A stretch of 64,000 bases of DNA from Octopus vulgaris (lineage: Eukaryota): assembly GCA_951406725.2 (NCBI GenBank), contig OX597818.1, positions 123,566,001 to 123,630,000 of the forward strand, written 5' to 3'. Below the pieces are notes generated by a model, which saw only the letters and a list, made by a program, of their open reading frames with translations, ran no database searches and was not told the origin of the DNA. Every line of letters begins with the position of its first letter. The first letter of the stretch is position 1. The translations under genes were made by a program, and so were the position numbers. Below are positions 20,520 to 46,521 of the stretch, one piece after another.

Positions 20520-20977
20520 GAGACATTGAAGTTCTCATGGACTTAGACAAGTTCTTTTATACTGCGACATGTGCCGAAAACTGCGAACTTTTACATTTAG
20601 AATATGGAGCTTTTGACTCCTTCTTTAACAGACGTCATCGTGATAGCCGACAGCGCTTGTGTGACCGCACTAAGTTAAAGATTGAACAGCAATTGCGCCG
20701 TATGCCACCCGGCGCCGTTCCACTAATGACGAGTGTAAGACTGCGTCTCGAGAAAACCAAGTCACAACTTATGCAGGCCAAGAGAAGACTCAAAGGCAAA
20801 GATTTGGTACCTGTCAGGAAAATTGTCGATTTACCTCGGGGTCCAATCATTAATAATTATGGGCCGGGAGGACTTTTCTACATCATAGCTTTACAGAACA
20901 GACATGTTTGGGAGGCAGCAGCCGAAAGGGAAATGGCTCAAAGACACGAAGCATCTTACAAACAGGTATCACTTCAG
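20520..20977 (+). CDS. Internal exon of the same gene (GDIEVLMDLDKFFYTATCAENCELLHLE...PRGPIINNYGPGGLFY...)
   Basis: Acceptor ttttcacag|G and a non-repetitive open frame (part of ORF 20423..21061). The G-x-x-E...T..C....ELL.L pattern resembles the C-terminal half of a cNMP-binding beta-barrel. The donor is ambiguous: CAG|GTATCA (20965) or CAG|GTCAGG (20977), both phase 0. Confidence 0.78.
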
Positions 20978-31187: not shown

Positions 31188-34641
<3,454 letters not shown>

Positions 34642-35723: not shown

Positions 35724-36590
35724 GTGGCGAGCTGGTTGAATCGCTGGAACTTTGGGCAAAACGTTCAACGGCATTTCTTTCGGTGTTCAAATGCTGCCGA
35801 GTTTGAATTTACTTTTCATCTTTCCGGGCTCGATAAAATAAGTACCAGTTGAATGCTGGTGTCAACGGAATCGACTTACCCCATCACCCCAAATTACAGG
35901 CCTTGTGCCAAAATTTCAAATCAATATTTAGTATGGAGAAGACAGCAATCTGGCAGAATCGTTAACACGTCAGACAAAATGCTTAGCGGCTTTTTGTCCG
36001 TGTTCACAATCAGAATCCAAATGCCACCGAGGTCAACTTTGCCTTTCATCCTTTCGGAGTCGATAAAATAAGTACCTATTTCTTTACTACCCACAAGGGG
36101 CTAAACACAGAGAGGACAAACAAGGATAGACAAACGGATTAAGTCGATTATATCGACCCCAGTGAGTAACTGGTACTTATTTAATCGATCCCGAAAGGAT
36201 GAAAGGCAAAGTCGACCTCGGTGGAATTTGAAATCAGAACGTAGCGGCAGGCGAAATACCTATTTCTTTACTACCAACAGGGGGCTAAACACAGAGGGGA
36301 CGAACAAGGGCAGACAAATGGATTAAGTCGATTATATCGACCCCAGTGCGAAACTGGTACTTAATTTATCCACCCCGAAAGGATGAAAGGCAAAAATCGA
36401 CCTTGGCGGAATTTAAACTCAGAAAGTAACGGCAGACGAAATACTGCTACGCATTTCGCCCGGCGTGCTAACGATTCTGCCAGCTCGCCACCTTTCGATG
36501 AAATAAGTACCAGTTGAAAACTGGGGGTGATGTAATCGACTTCACTCCTCTCCTGGTATTGCTAGCCTTGTGCCAAAATTTGAAATCAAT
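35724..36590. mobile_element. Cluster of family C SINEs, including an antisense dimer (36077-36492) nested in a sense copy
   Basis: The host core is interrupted, with TSD TCGAT(A/G)AAATAAGTACC at 36060-36076 and 36495-36511. Confidence 0.82.
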
Positions 36591-36632
36591 AAATAATACG
36601 GAGCTATATTTTGATAATCATCTTCATTTCAG

Positions 36633-36776
36633 GCCTCCCCAATTCTGGATGTAGGAACAGACAGAAGAAAGAAATGTAAAGGAAACGGAAGAATTTCTAT
36701 GGCAACTTCAATTCTGCAAAACTTCTCAAAGGAAATAAAATTTGCATTTTTGAAATTAATCAAATTCCTTATTTAA
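36633..36776 (+). CDS. Candidate terminal exon of the cNMP-binding-like gene (ASPILDVGTDRRKKCKGNGRISMATSILQNFSKEIKFAFLKLIKFLI*)
   Basis: Acceptor tcttcatttcag|G, phase 0 matching the previous donor, 47 codons to TAA. It lies in unique sequence among SINEs. No homology evidence. Confidence 0.4.
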   Translation, partial: ASPILDVGTDRRKKCKGNGRISMATSILQNFSKEIKFAFLKLIKFLI

Positions 36777-37318
36777 ATTTTTTCTACGTTTTCTCTTTAA
36801 ATCGCATATATATAAAAGCATGTTTCATTTATCTGTGAATGAATGTAATATTAGTTGATCAGACACACACACACATACACACACATGTATATAGACACGC
36901 GCAAATACAAAAACATACACATAAGAAGTCCGATTGGCAGAGGCTTTACTGATTCGAATAAATTGCCTTACAGTAATGGTTCCGGCTCGCTACACTGCAA
37001 GTTCAAATCCCACTATCAACTATAGTCGAATCTTCTCTCTTCCGGCATGAATTTCTTTCTTCTGGAAGGAATCTGATATTGTCGGACGTGGAAATGAATG
37101 GGCTGTATCAGATCCCAGAATGCTAAAGATACGCACGTGTCACGTTGGCGCCCCTACAACAATTAGATGGTCCAAGTTATTTTCATATATATTTAATCGA
37201 ATTTTTTTGTTAAAATTTTTCTAAGTGAACTTAATCATTGGTACAGATCGTCTTATAATTACTTGGTAGAACAGAGCTGACATGTTGAGTTATATTGCCA
37301 ATAGCTAAAATTCAACAA

Positions 37319-37535
37319 GGCGGCGTGCTGGCAGAAACGTTAGCACGCCGGGCGAAATGCTTTGCGGTATTTCGTCTGCCGTTACGTCGTTCTGATTTTA
37401 AATTTCGCAGAGGTCGACTTTTCCTTTCGTCCCTTTCAGTGTCGATAAAATAAAGTACCAGTTGGTACAGGGGTTGATGCAATTCACTTACCCTCTCCCC
37501 CGAATTTACTGGCCTTGTGTCAAATTTGAAACCAA
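37319..37535 (+). mobile_element. SINE family C (variant 3' end)
   Basis: Same head and core with a ...GGCCTTGTGTCAAATTTGAAACC end. Confidence 0.8.
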
Positions 37536-38104
37536 TAGTTAAAGTTTAACAACCGGCGAAATAATAACTTCTCATGTCGACTATATGTATTTTTTCTCAA
37601 ATTTCAGTTGACAGAGAATTGTGACAGAAGTGTTTGCGTTTAATTAGGCTAAAGAGCATGCATTTGTAAGGTGTCTCACAGAATCAATTGACTTTCCTGG
37701 TGAATCTAAACAGGATAGTGAACTATCTTAACGGAAGCCAGTCTCCAACATCATATTAATATCAAAACAAATGCAAATAAAAAAAAAAAACGAGAATTTT
37801 GGTTGACATTTTCAAACTAAAATTTTATTCGTTTATAAAGCAATGTTAGGTTTCCTTTCCCTAATAAAATGACATGTCCATTTATAAATCAACGATAGAC
37901 ATTGTATAAACACAAATAGGTAACAGACTAGTTTTCTCTAAAATATGCCAACCTAAGGTAATAAAAATCAATAATTTTAGATTTTATACAGGCATAGTTT
38001 CATTCACCATGAACACGTTTTTACTAGTTCAGTAAACAAATGAGGTGGTATTTTTGGCATAAATCCCAGATACTTTCTTTTTCACGATATTGGCACTACT
38101 AATA

Positions 38105-38440
38105 TTAGTTTCAAGTTTTGGCACAAGGCCAGCAATTTCGGGGGAAAAAGTAGGTCGATTACATCGACTTCAGTATTCAACTGGTACTTATATTATTGGC
38201 CCCAAAAGGATGAAAAGTAAAGCTGACCTCGGCGGAATTTGAACACAGAACAAAGACGGACAAAATGCCACTAAGCATTATTACCTTTTTCTCCCCTAAG
38301 TCGTCAAGCTGGCAGAATTGTTAGTACGCTTAGCGGCATTTTGTCTGTCTGTATGTTCCAAGTTCAAAACTCGCCGAGGTCAACTTTGCCTTACATTTTT
38401 TTCGAGATTGCCGGCCTTGTACCAAAATTTGAAATCAATA
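38105..38440. mobile_element. Head-to-head pair of family C SINEs
   Basis: Minus copy ~38105-38280 and plus copy ~38300-38440. Confidence 0.7.
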
Positions 38441-38698
38441 TTACTTTGGTTTTTGTAGGAGTTTTGCAAGTTTTTCGTGTGTGAAATCGCGTATTAAAGT
38501 AGATTCTGTGTATTGGGAAGAACATTTTGTCAGTGCGTGTGTTTCTCATTGGCAAAATGATCCTGTCAAGATACACCGATATTACTATAATTCAGCAGAT
38601 CAATATTACTAATATTGTTTGATTAATCAGGAAAATAATTAAACAAAATGATATAACAGAAGCTTTAAACAAAAAAGTTAACATTGATTCAGATATGT

Positions 38699-40903
38699 TC
38701 AATTGTTCAGTTCTTTATCATTATTATTGAAACTATCCAAAAATAACATAGCATCATGGATTTCTTGGACAACCTTAATTTGTTTGATCGCCACATTGCA
38801 GTAGTCTGAGTAGGTTTTAGACTGGTCTTGACATTTGTAAGGCGTAAACCAGGTGTCATGAAATGACTGCATCTGCATTTCTTTCGCAGATTGCAAATAA
38901 ATCTCAGCTCTATCCAAATTTCCCATTAAATCTTCAAGGGAATTTTGAAAGTCTTTTATAAACATTTTCTCCGAATGATTTCCTGCAATATTCTGGGAGA
39001 CTGCTTCAGAAGAAGTTCTAAATACTTTACGCAATGACGCTTTCAAATTCGGAAGTAGGTTCTGAAATTTTTTAATAAAATTATTATCAGAAACAGGTGA
39101 TCTTGCGTTTATAGGATTCTTTATTTCGTTACATAGTTTTACATGTGAAGCATTTGAGTCCTGAGTGTTTTGGCTATAGTGACATGACGGTAGTTGACAC
39201 TCAAATATCTGTTTTCTATGCAGCTCTTGCAGTTGCTGCCATAATATTTGGTTTCGAAATTGTATCAAATTATTCTCTCCATTACCGTGACTAAAATTAT
39301 CGGTTTGATTCGCTTGCTTACAAACACATTGGAACGCATTTGGACGACTTACCAAGCACGGAATCTGTTGATCTGCTTTAGCCATAGTTACATAGTTTTG
39401 TACTGGCTTCATTTGTATTTGTCTCGTGTGTTCTTGTATTAACTGAGAATGCATTTCTTTCCAAGGAAAATTTAACCCTTGAGATAAATTATCTGGTTGC
39501 GGCAAAATACAGTTACTCATGACAGCTTTATTCTCTTGGCTTAAAACCCGAGACGTAACCAGGTTTGGTCTTAATGCTAAATTTCCAGAAATACCTGGGT
39601 TTTTGCCAATTTGCGGAGCGGTGAAATTGCCCGATGCCACCGACTGATATCCAACTGTAGTGCATTCCATATACTCTTTGACAACAATAGCTTCTTTATT
39701 AGTTACTGAAACGGCAGCTTTCTTCGTTACTGGTTCGATTGACAAATTAATGTTTGGTAACACACGTTTGAAAGGTGTGCGAGCTGGATAAGGTACACAG
39801 ACACTAAACTGATCTTTAACCATTTGACGTGGTTTTTTATTGATAGGAACTTGCTCTAACTCTTGATCATCTTGCTTTGCAACTAAATCAGGCTGCCAGA
39901 AATTAGACGAACCAGCATTGTCCCCTCTACTATTAGTAGATGAAGAATTCATAAATACGGGAGGCATATTAAAGGACGTCTTATTTCCATATTCAACTTC
40001 GGGTTTTAAATCACCGTTGAATTTTTTCTCATTATCCTCACTTCTTTGAAAATTATTGTTGCTATTGTTATTGTGTTCGATATTTTTTACACATTTTCCG
40101 GATCTAATGAATTGCTCGTTCTGATCTTTTGACACATTATTTAACTTTCCGATCGATTGTGAGTCTGATTTGTGTTCTAACAAATTTGGAACAGCTGTCG
40201 TAAGACTGCTAAAATCTTTCATCTCTCTCTTTTTCTGATACGTGTTAGGATTAGACACATCCAGTAGGACTACATGAAGTGTTTGACTGCTTTCAGGATC
40301 ATCTGACGGGAAAAGTTTCGACTCGGCTAACCCAACATCAGGTAAGGCTGCAGTTTTATTGGCCAAAGTGTTTTGTAATATATTAGGAGCAAAATGCTGA
40401 TTGATTGACTGCATTTCTTCCTTTGTGTTTGCATTTAAGAGAGATATTTCTGTTCGCGAATTATCGATATTCAAACGATCTGGCCGATTTGTTTGCTCTA
40501 CTGAAGGTTCAATCTTATGTTCACAGATACGTTTAGTAGTTATCTCTGATTGTTTTGACTCTATCGCTGTTGGGATCGAAGGATTTTTGTCGACATATGC
40601 TTTCCCATACAATGTTCTCGAGTTTGTTGAAACATAGTTGCTGCTTCTGTCAGTAACCCTGGAATTGTTTAGTGGCTCAGCGATGCTTCCTTGACAATTT
40701 TCCGAAATGGTTTCGTTAATTCGTTCACCAATTGTAGGACTACGAAACCGATCACCAACGGAGCCATCGCTTCCATTATCCTGTTCAAAGCTGTCATTGT
40801 TTCTGTTATTTAATTTAGGAACACAGCCAAGAGTCGATTTACTTAGTTGACAAGATGCGTCCGGGTTTTGCTGTTTATAAACATTCAGTAGCGGCTTCGA
40901 CAT
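38699..40903 (-). CDS. 734-aa uninterrupted ORF: long low-complexity N/S/Q-rich region plus C-terminal Mediator subunit 29 (Intersex)-like domain
   Basis: A 2.2-kb open frame in non-repetitive DNA. C-terminal blocks LLPNLKASL, DFQNSLEDL...LDRAEIYLQSAKE and YSDYCNVAIKQIKVVQEIHDAML parallel, in order and spacing, the Med29 helices as recalled (LIPQLKESL / RFDKCLEEF..CDQLELCL..A.E / YPQYL.VIK.QI..AKDIH.ALL). Minus-strand AATAAA near 37824. Confidence 0.75.
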   Translation of the reverse strand: MSKPLLNVYKQQNPDASCQLSKSTLGCVPKLNNRNNDSFEQDNGSDGSVGDRFRSPTIGERINETISENCQGSIAEPLNNSRVTDRSSNYVSTNSRTLYGKAYVDKNPSIPTAIESKQSEITTKRICEHKIEPSVEQTNRPDRLNIDNSRTEISLLNANTKEEMQSINQHFAPNILQNTLANKTAALPDVGLAESKLFPSDDPESSQTLHVVLLDVSNPNTYQKKREMKDFSSLTTAVPNLLEHKSDSQSIGKLNNVSKDQNEQFIRSGKCVKNIEHNNNSNNNFQRSEDNEKKFNGDLKPEVEYGNKTSFNMPPVFMNSSSTNSRGDNAGSSNFWQPDLVAKQDDQELEQVPINKKPRQMVKDQFSVCVPYPARTPFKRVLPNINLSIEPVTKKAAVSVTNKEAIVVKEYMECTTVGYQSVASGNFTAPQIGKNPGISGNLALRPNLVTSRVLSQENKAVMSNCILPQPDNLSQGLNFPWKEMHSQLIQEHTRQIQMKPVQNYVTMAKADQQIPCLVSRPNAFQCVCKQANQTDNFSHGNGENNLIQFRNQILWQQLQELHRKQIFECQLPSCHYSQNTQDSNASHVKLCNEIKNPINARSPVSDNNFIKKFQNLLPNLKASLRKVFRTSSEAVSQNIAGNHSEKMFIKDFQNSLEDLMGNLDRAEIYLQSAKEMQMQSFHDTWFTPYKCQDQSKTYSDYCNVAIKQIKVVQEIHDAMLFLDSFNNNDKELNN

Positions 40904-42160
40904 TCTCTATCTGTGGGGGTGGGGTATCTGGTTAATTGGTTTGTTTTGCATAAAAGTATTTTCTGAAACAAACACTCGACTTCGACAACAGTATTAACAC
41001 CATCTCCGGAAACCCATCTTTGCAATCTTCTATTTTGTACAACCAAAACAAAACAACTTGGTACTTACTAAATACATTTCCAATACCGAACCAGCTAGCA
41101 GTATTTTTCTTTTCCTCGAATTACCTTTTCATACAAAAGGAGGCTTATTTTTAGCAACAAACAATGTCTGTATCTTTTTTGTTATAATTACATTTAAGGA
41201 ATTGTCAAGCTGCTTCGTTTTTGTATTTCAATATTACATAGGCCATTTTGTAAAATATTACTAAAATACAAAACCAGCAGAAAGATAGCTATATAAGTAG
41301 TGTTACTGGTGGCAATTCCATTATTTTAAGACAGATTAAACCATTTCTAAAATCAGGTAAAAAGGAAATATAAATAATGAGTTACTTATATAAGATGTTT
41401 GCTACAAAAAATATCTAAAGAACATGGTTCGCTTCGTTACTCTGCAGTTATCTACACAAGAAGTATTAGCCGTTCAAGAATTTGGACCTGGAGATCTCCA
41501 TTTCCAGCGACTTCGAGGGCCACCTCCCAGTGGTGTCGGGCGTCAACGAAGAGCCCTCGACTACAACAAGACGACCAAAGTTTTTTTTTCCCAAGGTCTG
41601 GGATCTCCCGCCTCTAAGCCCTAGACCATCACCTAATCACCCTTACCCGTCTTGTTGGCTTAACAACAACAACAATAAGAAGCATTATATAAGGATTCCC
41701 TTTCTTTTTAATTGTGGTAATAACCAATTATTGGAAGGAAGACGAATGTTGTATTGAATAAATTCTACTAATTTTTACTGTTAATATATTAGCCCAGCAT
41801 GGATGAAAATCAAAGTGGTATTAACTAAAATCAGAGATCCGGAACTGGTCATACGTCAAGGTGTCGAAATCTTGTCACCTTGCATGTTTAAGATTTGAGA
41901 TTACAAGACATCATTGGGCCACATTGCAAAAGCAGAAAAGAATTTTGACTGAGTAGAATGAAACAAGATCAAATGAAGTGCACAACGTGTTGTTTGGTTC
42001 TGAAATCGAACGCAATTTTTTTTGTAATCGTTATTCCAACAACCTAACCACTACACCACACGCATCCACACCGAATTAGCAAAATATCTTACTGAGCTAC
42101 CTTTCCACTGCAGCCAAGTAGGAACAAGGTCCTAAAATTATCGAAGAAGAACACCTAGTC

Positions 42161-42236
42161 CAGTGGTTCCCGACAGAGTTTCCAAACCTTTTATTTAAAT
42201 GAGTTCTCCCACGGACCCCTTTTAATATGCCACCCT

Positions 42237-42287
<51 letters not shown>

Positions 42288-42395
42288 ATCACGTGACCGA
42301 CCAGACCATCAGATGTTGTTACACATCGCTGGTCACAATGCGTTCGCATTGTTTTAGCCTTCAAATGACGCCACCCTGCTGGCTAAGCGAGCAGG

Positions 42396-42457
<62 letters not shown>

Positions 42458-42516
42458 TTTGAATTTAGTTCACGGTCCCAGTACTACCTTTGCGGACCCC
42501 AGGTTGGGAACCACTG
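42161..42516. mobile_element. hAT (Charlie-like) MITE
   Basis: TIR CAGTGGTTCCC / GGGAACCACTG and 8-bp TSD ACCTAGTC / ACCTAATC. Confidence 0.82.
42281..42397 (-). mobile_element. ~117-bp RTE-tailed short retroposon (family E) in (TA)n
   Basis: GGCCTGCTCGCTTAGCC...GGTCGGTCACGTGATCACGTGA. Other copies at 19398-19495 (+) and 346-419 (-). Confidence 0.8.
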
Positions 42517-43859
42517 ACCTAATCGGTTACATTGACTTGTGCGCTGAAGTAATGCTTATTTTATCGATCCTAAAAGAATAATAGTTAAAGTCGACTTCGG
42601 AAGAATTTGAACTCGAAACAAACAACGAAAGCAATACCACTAAGCGTTTTGTACGACATGAATAATAATACTTTCAGGTTCTGGCACAAAATTTTATGAG
42701 AATGGGTAAAAGCTGATTACATCATCCTCGGCGCTCAATGGTGCCTATTTTATCAACACATGAAAGGATGATAGGTAAAGTCGACCTCGGAAGAAATGCT
42801 TCTTAGCATTTTTTCCGACACGCTAAAGACTCTGCAAACACGCCGCCCTTATTCACTGTAATTTATCTCAAGGAAAAGTAGATGCACCGTGCAAGACCAT
42901 ACATTGTAGATGAGAGAGGGAATCGATTGCATTGATGATATATTTTATTAATTCGGGACACATTTTATCGGTTCCGGAATTTTATCCTGCTAATTTCGTG
43001 GTCATTGTCTTTCACGCAAAATTTCATAATAATTTCTTAAAAACAGCACGTTATGAGATAGGGAGTTATCAGCCGCGAAGAAATTCAAATAGTTTAGTTA
43101 CTAAACTACATGTAGGGTTCTGCTGCTTCTTCTATAAACTCGTACATCATTAATTAAATTAAATTAAAAACACGTAAATTTCAAACAAATATTGAGACGA
43201 TTGTATAATGTAATGGATATGTCTCAACAACTGCAAGATCTTAAATTTATTCTGGATTAAATGAATTCACCGTAACTTCACTTAAAACACAAAAGCAAAG
43301 TAGAATGGAATTTATATTTTCAATGTTATTCACCCTGCCCACTCCTGACACAGACATACAGATGCCCCAAATTCCCCCCACCCCACCCCCAACAAGTGTT
43401 ACGCGTTAGTGAACAACAATGCAAACAGAAAACTGAAGAACTATTTAAAAAAGATAAAGAGCGTAACTGTGTCGGTGGTCGTGAAAGGAGAAGAGAGTTT
43501 GCCCAAAAACTCCAAATGCGTCGTGGTGAACGAAGAGAGGATCAGGCTAATTAGAAGGACTGGGACAGAAATTGTTGACAAACTTTGTAATGGACTCGAG
43601 TAAGTTGCCACCTACGGTGAACTGTAATGACCTTTATTTTAAGTATGTTTAAAAAGTGTAAATGAAGTGGCTCTGATTGAGGGTTCAGTGGCTTCGTTCC
43701 ATTTCATTATTCACTTTTCATCTTTCCCATTCGTTTTTCTTCTTTTGTCCCCACTTATACGTTTGTCTGCACTTGTATCATTCCTCTATGTTTAGCCTCT
43801 TCTGGGCAATAAAGAAATCTATATTTTCAATTTTATTATTGTTAATTATTATTTGGTTT

Positions 43860-44045
43860 GATTGAGGTTCGTTCTTATTCGTGATTGGATTTATGTGGGT
43901 AGCGGGTACCTGTAACCTTAGGTATCCACAAATTTTCAGTAGTCTTTCAAGTACTTAGAACCTTCCTGATAAGCCTTGCTGTTCCTAAGAGGCAAACTTT
44001 CTGTGGAGCAACGTAAAGGGATGGCACTGTTGCGCGCTGTGTTCG
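43860..44045 (-). mobile_element. Short Dong/R4-like 3' remnant
   Basis: QKVCLLGTARLIRKVLST* matches the C-terminus of the 58-kb Dong fragment. Confidence 0.6.
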
Positions 44046-44299
44046 GATGAACAGAAAGAAAAAATAACATGATATAAAAGCGGATATAGGTGTTGGGAGG
44101 GAAATTGGAATGGGGCGTATTACCACAGTATATGACATATGAGGAAGTGGTGGAAGAATTTGGAATAGATATTCTAGCGGGAACGAAGTTTAAAAGATAT
44201 AAATGAAGCTACTATGAAGAGGGGCAGAGTGGCTTCATTCCATTTTTCATTTCACTTTTCTTGTCATTTTTTTCATACGTTGGTTCTAACTTTTCTCCT

Positions 44300-44585
44300 G
44301 GATGGTGAACGGGTGTGGTCTCCGCTAGCCAGACAAATGTTCCTCACGCTATTGTCCAGTGTCCGGAGATATCTGAAATATGGATTTATGCTGAACACTT
44401 GTCCGGCGAAGGATGAGTACGGCTGTCGACAGAGCCAATTATAAAAATTGACCCACCAGAAGTTTTAACAAACGAAGGTGAGAATTATTTTCTCACGGTT
44501 GTAGCAATAGCGAAAGAGGCAGTGTGGAAGACTAGGATAAAAGGGATTAAGACAGGCAACTTTATCTCCGGCCACGATTTACGAT
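44300..44585 (+). mobile_element. L1/Tx1-like LINE C-terminal remnant
   Basis: The frame reads VPHAIVQCPEISEIWIYAEHL...FLTVVAIAKEAVWKTR (zinc-knuckle H..C and AK..VW..R motifs) with an internal stop. Confidence 0.6.
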
Positions 44586-46521
44586 CTTAGAAAGATGAAA
44601 GGCAAAGTCGTCCTCAGTGGAATTTAATTAAATATCACAGAACTACTAATTTTATATCCTATCACTGATCTTACCATTCCACTGCAAAATTTAATCATTG
44701 CTTTACAAATATTTGCCAATTATTTATATCACACATACACAGTCAAAATTTGTAGTGAGCCTCCACCGGTACTTATTTTATCAACTCCGGAAGAATGAAA
44801 GTCAAAGTGTATATTTCAGCGATATTTCAACTCAAAACTTAGATTTCAAATGTTGCCAAATGTTTCCTCCGACTCTCTGACGACTCTGCTAATTTGCCGC
44901 TCTTAATTTTTTCTAACATCGATAAAAGGCCAGAAACTTGTGGGAAAATGGTAATTCATTAAATTGACGAACGCCTGGTACTTAATCGATCCCGGTAAGA
45001 TGAGATGCAAAGTCATCTTCAGTGGTATTTAAACTCAGAACGCAAAGAGATATAACCAAATATTACAAAATTATTATTTTTCCGTCGTTCCGCCGATAAT
45101 TCTGTTATTCCATTCCAATTGTAATTTCAGTAATACCATTTAGCTATAATTTGAATTCAGTTTGCCCTGGGCGGAGTTTCTTCTACAATATCGTTTGACT
45201 TACTAGAAGAAAGGGCCTAATGTTTCGCAAGTAGCAATTTCCCATTTCTTGACAAGGTGCACATAGATGCACATTCTAGACAGTGAGTGGTTCTCCATCG
45301 GTTCCGATGATGTAGTTGAGTTGTTCGATCAACTGAATTACCTACTTATTTAGATTTGCGTATTAGTGGCTGAATATTTCACAGGTAAAATACCTCTAAC
45401 CTAATCCTCAAGCAAAATTTGGGTAACATAATGTATTACAACTTGCATCTTTGAATCATAGAGACGACCCAGCTAAAGACTTCCCCGCTTGTTCCCATTC
45501 AGACCATTTCACTAAAACAGCTTGGTAAAAAAAACTGCATAAGATACCATTCAGTGAGACTGAATCCGACACCTCAAGATCATAACACTAAGTTCTTAAC
45601 CATTCGGCCATCCTACGTCGTAAGTTTTAGCTAATAATATTCGGTCAGAGTATACAGCTTTGTCACACAACTGAGTTCATAGAGCACAAAACAAATAGCC
45701 ACGATAATTGCATTGTTCTTTGTCAAGTATATTTCATTATCTTAAATGGCTCAGTCCACATAAACTTAAGTAGATGTTGTTGCAAAAGAACTCCCCAATT
45801 CTGTACGCAGCGATAACACTGCGAAACCTTTGGATATTTTGTTGGTGTGCAGTGCTAGTTACAACTTGTCCTTTGAGAAGGATATACTTTATCAAGCAAG
45901 CATAACCTAACACACTTCATGCAGAGTAAGTATACACAAGTCGGAAATAAACTGCGTCAGTCTAGTTTAATCGAAAATAAACTATAACCAAGGTTAAGAA
46001 AAGCAATAATAATACGAGGGTGTGCTGAAATGTTCCTGGCTTTGAGAAAGAGAAAATACAGGAGGATCAGTTGATTATGAGTTTATTCAACATATACTCC
46101 TTTCAGATTTATACACTTATTGCAGCGGCCGTTCAGTTTTTCTCAGCTCTATAAAAGAACACGAAAGGTTGAGCCTCCATTTTATGGTTGGTTGTTATTC
46201 GTCTTTTCACACTCAGCATTAACGGCGGAAGCAACCGAACAGGGGACAGAAGATTCGTAACTGATCCTGTCTGAACTAAACCCCTCGTGCAATAAAATTG
46301 CAGACGTAGCGGTACTTCGTTGTCGCAGAAGAGTGTAATGCACCAACCATCGCAACCAAAGGTCATCCGTCTGTTTGTGGATTAAAGAAGTTCAAATCTT
46401 GACTTGCGCTGAACTTGAAGTTGAAAAACTGAAACATTTCTAACAGTAACCACATATTTAAGTAGACGGGAGGAAATAGAAATATGGTGATTGATCAAAA
46501 TGCATATATATATATACATAC

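What the first reader, a model, noticed from the sequence alone, without database searches (positions are those of the whole stretch)
38699..40903. Intronless, greatly extended Med29/Intersex-like gene
Seen: a 734-aa stop-free ORF in unique DNA whose last ~130 aa (~39090-38702) follow the Med29 helical pattern. Established: metazoan Med29 is a short (~200 aa) Mediator tail subunit, and Drosophila Intersex is the cofactor of female Doublesex. Inference: this is a divergent paralog, possibly a retrocopy, fused to ~600 aa of probably disordered sequence. It could be a lineage- or germline-specific Mediator variant. The homology was judged by eye from memory.
Basis: partly seen in the sequence, partly recalled or inferred. 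Interest (0 to 1): 0.72.

Follow-up and report, generated by a model that had tools for sequence, protein, structure and literature searches.

The report
Octopod second Med29 with disordered arm
Octopuses and argonauts carry a second, fast-evolving copy of the Mediator subunit Med29, joined to about 600 extra residues that are predicted to be disordered; it is predicted to still pair with its usual partner Med27 and likely serves as a swap-in subunit of the gene-activation machinery, in tissues not yet identified.

Summary
38699-40903 (-) is one 734-codon frame whose last ~120 residues pass Pfam's Med29 cut-off (30.6 vs 25.2 bits) and match solved MED29 chains. It is a paralog: a normal 159-aa Med29 lies on another chromosome, 33% identical. 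Long orthologs exist in O. bimaculoides (86%), an unnamed relative (63%) and Argonauta hians (33%); a profile search of 1.84 billion proteins found no other long form. The domain evolves far faster than canonical Med29 (Octopus-Argonauta 47% vs 88%) yet keeps its Med27-facing residues (19 of 26 invariant vs 18 of 52) and is predicted to pair with the genome's own Med27 (0.64, controls 0.00; a like complex is solved, so this may be memory). Residues 1-541 are predicted disordered, with one conserved 20-residue motif. 'Retrocopy' is unsupported: the canonical coding region is also intron-free. Transcription is likely but not shown; germline or sex bias is untested; no closeness to insect Intersex was found. 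No intact duplicate of Med27, Med28 or Med30 was found. Best reading: an octopod alternative Mediator tail subunit, closest in logic to Candida TLO. Not found in the papers searched.

The parts
38699..40903 (-). Single-frame coding sequence of the long Med29 paralog, 734 aa plus TGA
   Evidence: orthologs P0002, P0003, P0014
38720..39088 (-). Med29-like domain (aa 606-728): predicted helices 609-640, 645-686, 698-728
   Evidence: Pfam 30.6 bits; PDB MED29 hits; AlphaFold2 pLDDT mostly 70-91 in the helices; 109-118 residues aligned to MED29 chains
38846..39079 (-). Helices 1-2 (aa 609-686), predicted Med27-binding hairpin
   Evidence: predicted interface residues 610-677; 19 of 26 invariant in four orthologs vs 18 of 52 other positions
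38720..38812 (-). Helix 3 (aa 698-728); in solved Mediator this helix packs with MED28-MED30; weakly conserved here
   Evidence: 3 of 25 positions invariant in four orthologs (Y698, Q708, I715); role from PMC7921410 passage
39197..39280 (-). Gln-rich predicted helix (aa 542-569) before the domain, with a counterpart in Argonauta
   Evidence: pLDDT 62-78; Argonauta helix 382-395; alignment
39281..40903 (-). N-terminal arm (aa 1-541), Asn/Ser/Gln-rich, predicted disordered, no Pfam family above cut-off
   Evidence: pLDDT <50 and no secondary structure (shallow alignment there); composition; Pfam; Atlas no usable hit
40253..40312 (-). Conserved short motif (aa 198-217, core QTLHVVLL) inside the disordered arm; candidate partner-binding motif
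   Evidence: 14 of 20 positions invariant in four orthologs against 89 of 375 overall, permutation p 0.002
38241..41269 (-). Stretch covered by single colinear contigs of two public runs; likely the transcribed unit (ORF plus ~360 bp 5' and 300-460 bp 3')
   Evidence: X1 38409-41269, X2 38241-41262; the runs are only guessed to be RNA

Best explanation
This is an octopod duplicate of the Mediator tail subunit Med29 that gained a ~600-residue, predicted-disordered N-terminal arm and likely works as a swap-in subunit, replacing ordinary Med29 on the single Med27 in some cell types. Shown: two Med29 loci, an intact frame in four octopod lineages, fast change of the domain with the Med27-facing positions spared. 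Predicted: three-helix Med29 fold and a four-helix pairing with the own Med27 N-terminus. Inferred: because no intact second Med27, Med28 or Med30 was found, the variant would plug into the ordinary upper tail, and the arm (with its conserved motif and Gln-rich helix) would project from the tail and contact cell-type-specific activators or condensates, enlarging the short Q/P-rich N-terminus that ordinary Med29/Intersex has. A gonad or germ-cell role is a guess by analogy with testis TAF paralogs.
For: Pfam and PDB matches. Separate canonical gene on C9, 131 bits, 33% identical over 126 aa. Long orthologs: O. bimaculoides XP_052823923.1 86%, unnamed Logan cluster of 5 at 63%, A. hians GAB1604838.1 33% over 577 columns spanning arm and domain. 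The four form one clade, 100/99. Run X6 differs by three indels of 3, 6 and 3 nt in 621 bp, all frame-keeping; pN/pS 0.35 in the domain, 0.42 over aa 536-734 (9 silent, 16 replacement; p ~0.04). Complex with own Med27 1-130: score 0.64 in three runs, best of 3 controls 0.00, contacts agree >=65%, partner pLDDT 64; that mark was reached by 51 of 78 solved microbial complexes and 2 of 108 mismatches, and by 39 of 65 novel eukaryotic pairs and 2 of 126 unrelated ones. The interface matches the MED27-MED29 coiled-coil pairing described in PMC7921410. Interface positions 19 of 26 invariant vs 18 of 52 (Fisher p 0.002). Argonauta keeps the same helix layout.
Against: A MED27-MED29 complex is solved, so the pass may come from memory, and the tool says close cousins of a true partner pass too; no canonical control could be run. 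Interface residues are also the hydrophobic core of the hairpin, so their conservation does not single out Med27. Helix 3 is poorly kept (3 of 25 invariant) and the Argonauta domain falls below the Pfam cut-off (14.8 bits). The pN/pS test used 25 of 31 differences, has no correction for transition bias and is borderline. Among near-identical alleles 7 of 8 ORF differences change the residue, as neutrality predicts (79% expected). No run is on record as RNA and no tissue is known. Nothing shows a protein, a nuclear location or presence in Mediator.
Confidence: 0.55

Rival explanations
1. The protein acts outside assembled Mediator: it binds Med27 (or itself) through helices 1-2 as a decoy or free activator/scaffold, and the long arm carries the main function.
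For: Helices 1-2 are far better kept than helix 3, which in solved Mediator joins MED28-MED30. The arm is four-fifths of the protein and holds the best-conserved block outside the domain. In Candida, free Tlo is put at 10-fold or more above the Mediator-bound form (PMC4335505).
Against: In the three Octopus-type orthologs helix 3 keeps Y698, Y701, Q708, E714, I715 as in canonical Med29, and a third helix is predicted in both models.
Confidence: 0.25
2. It is a slowly decaying duplicate: transcribed, but under little selection, with an arm recruited from formerly non-coding sequence and kept by chance.
For: Stem branch 2.2 changes per site against near zero for canonical octopod Med29; 47 of 101 vs 112 of 128 identities Octopus-Argonauta; 7 of 8 replacement differences among close alleles; Argonauta domain has lost the loop and falls below cut-off.
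Against: An open frame of 669-736 codons in four lineages with 5, 12 and 20 indel events against this protein (P0002 and P0014 are gene models whose exon structure was not seen), across a split given a fossil minimum of ~29 Ma (PMC12682272); conservation is patterned; pN/pS below 1.
Confidence: 0.12
3. It is an Intersex-like cofactor of a Doublesex/DMRT factor in octopus sexual differentiation.
For: Drosophila IX, a Med29, binds DSX-F through C-terminal stretches, and a testis-specific ix isoform is reported in Bombyx (PMC8000406 passages).
Against: The paralogs do not group with the arthropod-type rows (p-AU 0.017); nothing here links the gene to sex; it lies on C5 and no sex-linkage was tested.
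Confidence: 0.06

Closest known systems
Metazoan Med29/Intersex (Pfam PF11568; human and mouse MED29, PDB 7emf_2, 6w1s_X)
   Same: Sequence match above cut-off, three predicted helices (two-helix hairpin, loop, third helix), invariant P618 L620 S623 E657 D664 E667 L670 Y698 Q708 across 16 rows, predicted Med27 pairing.
   Different: 734 aa instead of ~160-220; second copy; only ~30% identical to any canonical Med29 tested, own included; conserved Cys at 663 replaced by Leu in all four orthologs; shorter inter-helix loops.
Candida albicans TLO family (Med2 = fungal Med29 homolog per PMC2475620)
   Same: Lineage-specific extra copies of the same tail subunit, anchored through Med3/Med27; reported as mutually exclusive Mediator subunits with a free pool (PMC4335505, first third read).
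   Different: TLO is a 10-15-copy subtelomeric fungal family; here one old, highly divergent animal copy. The added region is N-terminal and ~600 aa; in Tlo the activation region is C-terminal and short (recalled, not from a call).
Tissue-specific paralogs of general transcription machinery (Drosophila testis TAFs; vertebrate Med12L, Med13L, Cdk8L; nematode Med27 and fish Med30 duplicates)
   Same: A general factor duplicated and diverged while the canonical copy stays conserved; testis TAFs act with Mediator in spermatocytes (PMC4666660, abstract).
   Different: The passages seen of the cross-eukaryote survey (PMC2475620; 12 of 23 places shown) name no animal Med29 paralog, only three in Trichomonas. 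Tissue specificity is not shown here.

Membership tests
Med29/Intersex | Pfam PF11568 above gathering score | tested here: met
   30.6 bits vs 25.2; P0002 42.4, P0003 37.5. The Argonauta ortholog scores only 14.8; 3 of 4 long forms pass.
Med29/Intersex | Two-helix coiled coil, loop, third helix | tested here: met
   Predicted helices 609-640, 645-686, 698-728 (alignment included canonical Med29 rows). MED29 chains align over 109-118 residues at 16-21% identity, Z 8.6-9.1, tied in Z with unrelated hairpins that mostly align 70-95 residues.
Med29/Intersex | Pairs with Med27 through the N-terminal coiled coils | tested here: inconclusive
   Prediction passes, 0.64 vs best control 0.00, but a like complex is solved; not a measurement.
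Med29/Intersex | Short protein (180-200 aa in mammals, PMC7921410) | tested here: not met
   734 aa; orthologs 669-736 aa. So it is a Med29-domain paralog, not the canonical subunit.
Med29/Intersex | Third helix bundles with MED28-MED30; MED15 helices sit between MED27 and MED29 | not tested
Med29/Intersex | Stoichiometric subunit of purified Mediator | not testable with these tools
   Needs purification.
Insect Intersex (cofactor of female Doublesex) | Binds DSX-F / sex-specific role | not testable with these tools
   No expression labels; grouping with arthropod-type rows rejected, p-AU 0.017.
Retrogene | Lost the parent's introns | tested here: inconclusive
   The parent's coding region has none to lose; its UTR exons were not mapped.
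Retrogene | Poly-A remnant and target-site duplication | tested here: not met
   No A-run of 7 or more between the stop and 38402; no flanking direct repeat stands out. Such marks erode in old copies.
Retrogene | Dispersed from the parent, no shared flanks | tested here: met
   C5 vs C9; only two short repeat-like pieces shared with 20 kb of canonical flank. An old DNA-level move would look the same.
TLO-like interchangeable Med2/Med29 paralogs | Paralogs exchange at one Mediator position and carry activation activity | not testable with these tools
   Needs co-purification and one-hybrid assays.

The most novel reading that the evidence does not exclude
Octopods assemble a second, cell-type-specific (most plausibly germ-line) Mediator by exchanging Med29 for a 734-residue variant whose newly gained disordered arm is a built-in activation or condensate module: an animal counterpart of the Candida TLO switch and a Mediator counterpart of testis TAFs.
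Probability: 0.3. Interest if true: 0.75.

Novelty: new variant of a known kind. Interest (0 to 1): 0.52.

Why it matters
Animal Med29 is treated as a short, single-copy structural subunit of the Mediator tail. A long-kept second copy with a 600-residue arm would show that an animal lineage can rewire the activator-facing tail by swapping one subunit. That is known in a yeast (TLO) but was not found for animals in the papers searched. It gives a concrete, cheap test (expression map, Med27 pull-down, one-hybrid of the arm) and a candidate for octopod-specific gene regulation.

Tried and rejected
Expression: no RNA holder listed; none of the 12 holding rows of 24 is on record as RNA. Runs X13 and X18 laid 0 contigs on the domain and 12 same-species rows had share 0.00; contigs cannot show absence, so tissue restriction is not claimed. 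In X1 and X2, 9 of 30 bins of 36500-46500, all outside the gene, had no depth; this fits RNA but proves nothing. Retrocopy marks: none. Origin of the arm: no second copy in the genome, no match in 20 kb around canonical Med29, no Pfam family over cut-off, no Atlas hit. A co-duplicated tail: Med27 one match, Med28 two exon matches at one locus, Med30 two loci of which the second has two in-frame stops; rejected (exon-wise searches, lower bounds; Med15 and Med16 not searched). Dating: the tree puts the paralogs with cephalopod-type Med29 (100/100 against six outgroup rows) but AU tests do not reject an origin before the six cephalopod-type rows diverged (p 0.24) or before the split from Bulinus (p 0.068), and several residues match outgroups rather than octopus Med29; the date stays open. 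Host gene: a scan for further plus-strand exons of the cNMP-like gene gave 15 candidates, none convincing. Fold search by VIA gave generic hairpins at equal Z. Earlier scan notes: none by sequence, place or words. A bacterial promoter scan does not apply to this organism and was ignored.

Full report
Observation. The frame is as described: ATG 40903 to TGA 38699, minus strand, 734 aa, in repeat-free sequence, far beyond chance (about 5e-24). Residues 610-720 pass Pfam's Med29 cut-off (30.6 vs 25.2 bits). The best solved-structure sequence hits are mouse and human MED29 and the four best Foldseek rows are Mediator chains, though none reaches E 0.001 with the full-length model.

It is a paralog. 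The genome holds two Med29 matches: this one (35 bits) and a canonical gene on contig C9 (131 bits). The latter encodes 159 aa, letter for letter the Octopus sinensis RefSeq Med29, so the window is from an octopus of that group. The two domains are 33% identical. The canonical coding region is itself a single open frame, and Drosophila ix is single-exon as well (PMC8000406, passages). Lack of introns therefore says nothing about retroposition. No poly-A remnant, flanking duplication or shared flank was found; the route of duplication is open.

Distribution. A word-based search gave 3 proteins of 5782 candidates: this one, O. bimaculoides XP_052823923.1 (736 aa, 86%, named 'uncharacterized') and an unnamed Logan cluster of five 669-aa proteins on 3.5-3.9 kb contigs (63%). 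A profile search of 1.84 billion representatives gave 11 hits: P0003, Argonauta hians GAB1604838.1 (675 aa, E 4e-59), seven short Med29-type proteins, and two long proteins matching only a low-complexity stretch (profile 366-426), which I dropped. The Argonauta protein aligns at 33% over arm and domain alike, so the fusion predates the Octopus-Argonauta split, for which PMC12682272 uses a fossil minimum of about 29 Ma (passage). No long form outside octopods appeared; the library is incomplete, so that is not proof of absence.

Tree and rate. On 136 domain columns and 16 rows the four long forms are one clade (100/99) on a stem of 2.2 changes per site, attached among cephalopod-type Med29 (P0012 and P0013 are unnamed and called cephalopod-type only from 67% identity to octopus Med29). 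AU tests do not fix the date (p 0.24 and 0.068 for older placements) but reject a place with the arthropod-type rows (p 0.017); long branches weaken all of these. Octopus versus Argonauta identity is 47 of 101 for the paralog domain and 112 of 128 for canonical Med29.

Selection. Run X6, whose residue changes are those of P0002, differs over 621 bp by three frame-keeping indels and 31 substitutions, of which the tool listed 25. Those give 9 silent and 16 replacement changes, pN/pS 0.42 (0.35 in the domain), p about 0.04 without correction for transition bias: weak purifying selection. Against this, 7 of 8 ORF differences in four near-identical runs are replacements, which neutrality would give. 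Conservation is patterned. In the arm one 20-residue block (198-217) is invariant at 14 positions against 89 of 375 overall (permutation p 0.002). In the domain 19 of 26 predicted Med27-facing positions are invariant against 18 of 52 others (p 0.002), while helix 3 keeps only 3 of 25. The Argonauta domain has dropped below the Pfam cut-off but is still predicted to have the three helices.

Structure. AlphaFold2 gives no structure for residues 1-541 (pLDDT under 50, with only four rows there), a Gln-rich helix at 542-569 and helices 609-640, 645-686 and 698-728. This is the layout described for MED27-30: hairpin, loop, third helix, paired as MED27-MED29 and MED28-MED30 (PMC7921410, passages). 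The genome's Med27 (P0029), residues 1-130, folded with residues 598-734 scored 0.64 in three runs against 0.00 for the best of three controls; runs agree in at least 65% of contacts, partner pLDDT 64; alignments were not used. That mark was reached by 51 of 78 solved microbial complexes and 2 of 108 mismatches (eukaryotes: 39 of 65 and 2 of 126). Since the human pair is solved, the pass shows likeness, not that this copy binds.

Partners. Med27 gave one match, Med28 one locus, Med30 two loci, the second an intron-containing 85-94% copy with two stops. So there is no sign of a duplicated tail; the variant would have to use the shared subunits.

Expression. Twelve of 24 listed runs, from six studies, hold the stretch or part of it; none is on record as RNA. 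X1 and X2, guessed to be RNA and only 16-18 million letters in size, each have one contig running colinearly from 300-460 bp past the stop to about 360 bp before the ATG; X8 covers 36938-41515 in several pieces; X7, a 2.2-billion-letter set, holds the domain intact. Transcription in two species is likely, not shown. No tissue or sex is known.

How it most likely works. Shown: a kept, fast-changing second Med29 with spared Med27-facing residues. Predicted: fold and Med27 pairing. Inferred: it replaces Med29 in the upper tail in some cells and its arm offers new contact surfaces, much as the short Q/P-rich N-terminus of Intersex is an activation region (PMC8000406). I put this at 0.55. A Mediator-free decoy or scaffold role is at 0.25, slow decay at 0.12, a Doublesex-type cofactor at 0.06.

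Known systems and novelty. The nearest logic is Candida TLO: extra Med2 (Med29 homolog, PMC2475620 passages) copies that exchange in Mediator and also form a free pool (PMC4335505, part 1 of 3). Testis TAFs are the animal analogy (PMC4666660, abstract and outline). Searches for Med29 + octopus (2 papers, neither on this by title or abstract start), cephalopod + Mediator complex + paralog (0), intersex + Med29 + intron + duplicat (2 general papers) and intersex + doublesex + Mediator + intronless (1 unrelated) found no description; an octopus sex-chromosome preprint does not mention Mediator or intersex (10.1101/2024.12.09.627507, passages). The library lacks most subscription papers and no supplements were read. 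Verdict: a real gene, a new variant of a known kind, interest 0.52.

Noticed in passing
window 20520-20965 (+): Internal exon with clean acceptor and donor, weak cNMP-binding match (Pfam E ~0.03, below cut-off), single copy in the genome. The gene continues 3'; whether the Med29 paralog lies antisense in one of its introns was not resolved.
   Followed up: partly
window 31402-34380 (-): About 990-aa open frame with endonuclease and reverse-transcriptase domains (non-LTR retrotransposon), flanked on both sides by long AT microsatellites.
   Followed up: partly
L017 (G000:C23:47795742-47798015, +): Second Med30 locus, an intron-containing copy 85-94% identical to the one at C23:23.18 Mb, with two in-frame stops in the last exon: a recent pseudogene.
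   Followed up: yes
window 40904-40913 (-) and L001 1975-1984 (-): Both Med29 genes have CAG exactly 7 nt before the ATG, which looks like a splice acceptor; X1 and X2 contigs read through it unspliced in the paralog. May be chance.
   Followed up: partly
window 39095, 38919, 39135: All six laid runs that cover these places have a 3-bp insertion at 39095 and other letters at 38919 and 39135; the two residue changes and the extra residue agree with the O. bimaculoides protein, so the window's haplotype carries the derived states.
   Followed up: partly
L001 (canonical Med29): The O. vulgaris database model CAI9727648.1 has a different last ~20 residues from the genomic frame, which matches the O. 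sinensis and O. bimaculoides models; an alternative splice or a mis-annotation.
   Followed up: no
P0014 (Argonauta ortholog): Lacks about 160 N-terminal residues of the Octopus form and has a ~110-residue Asn/Asp-rich tail after the domain.
   Followed up: no
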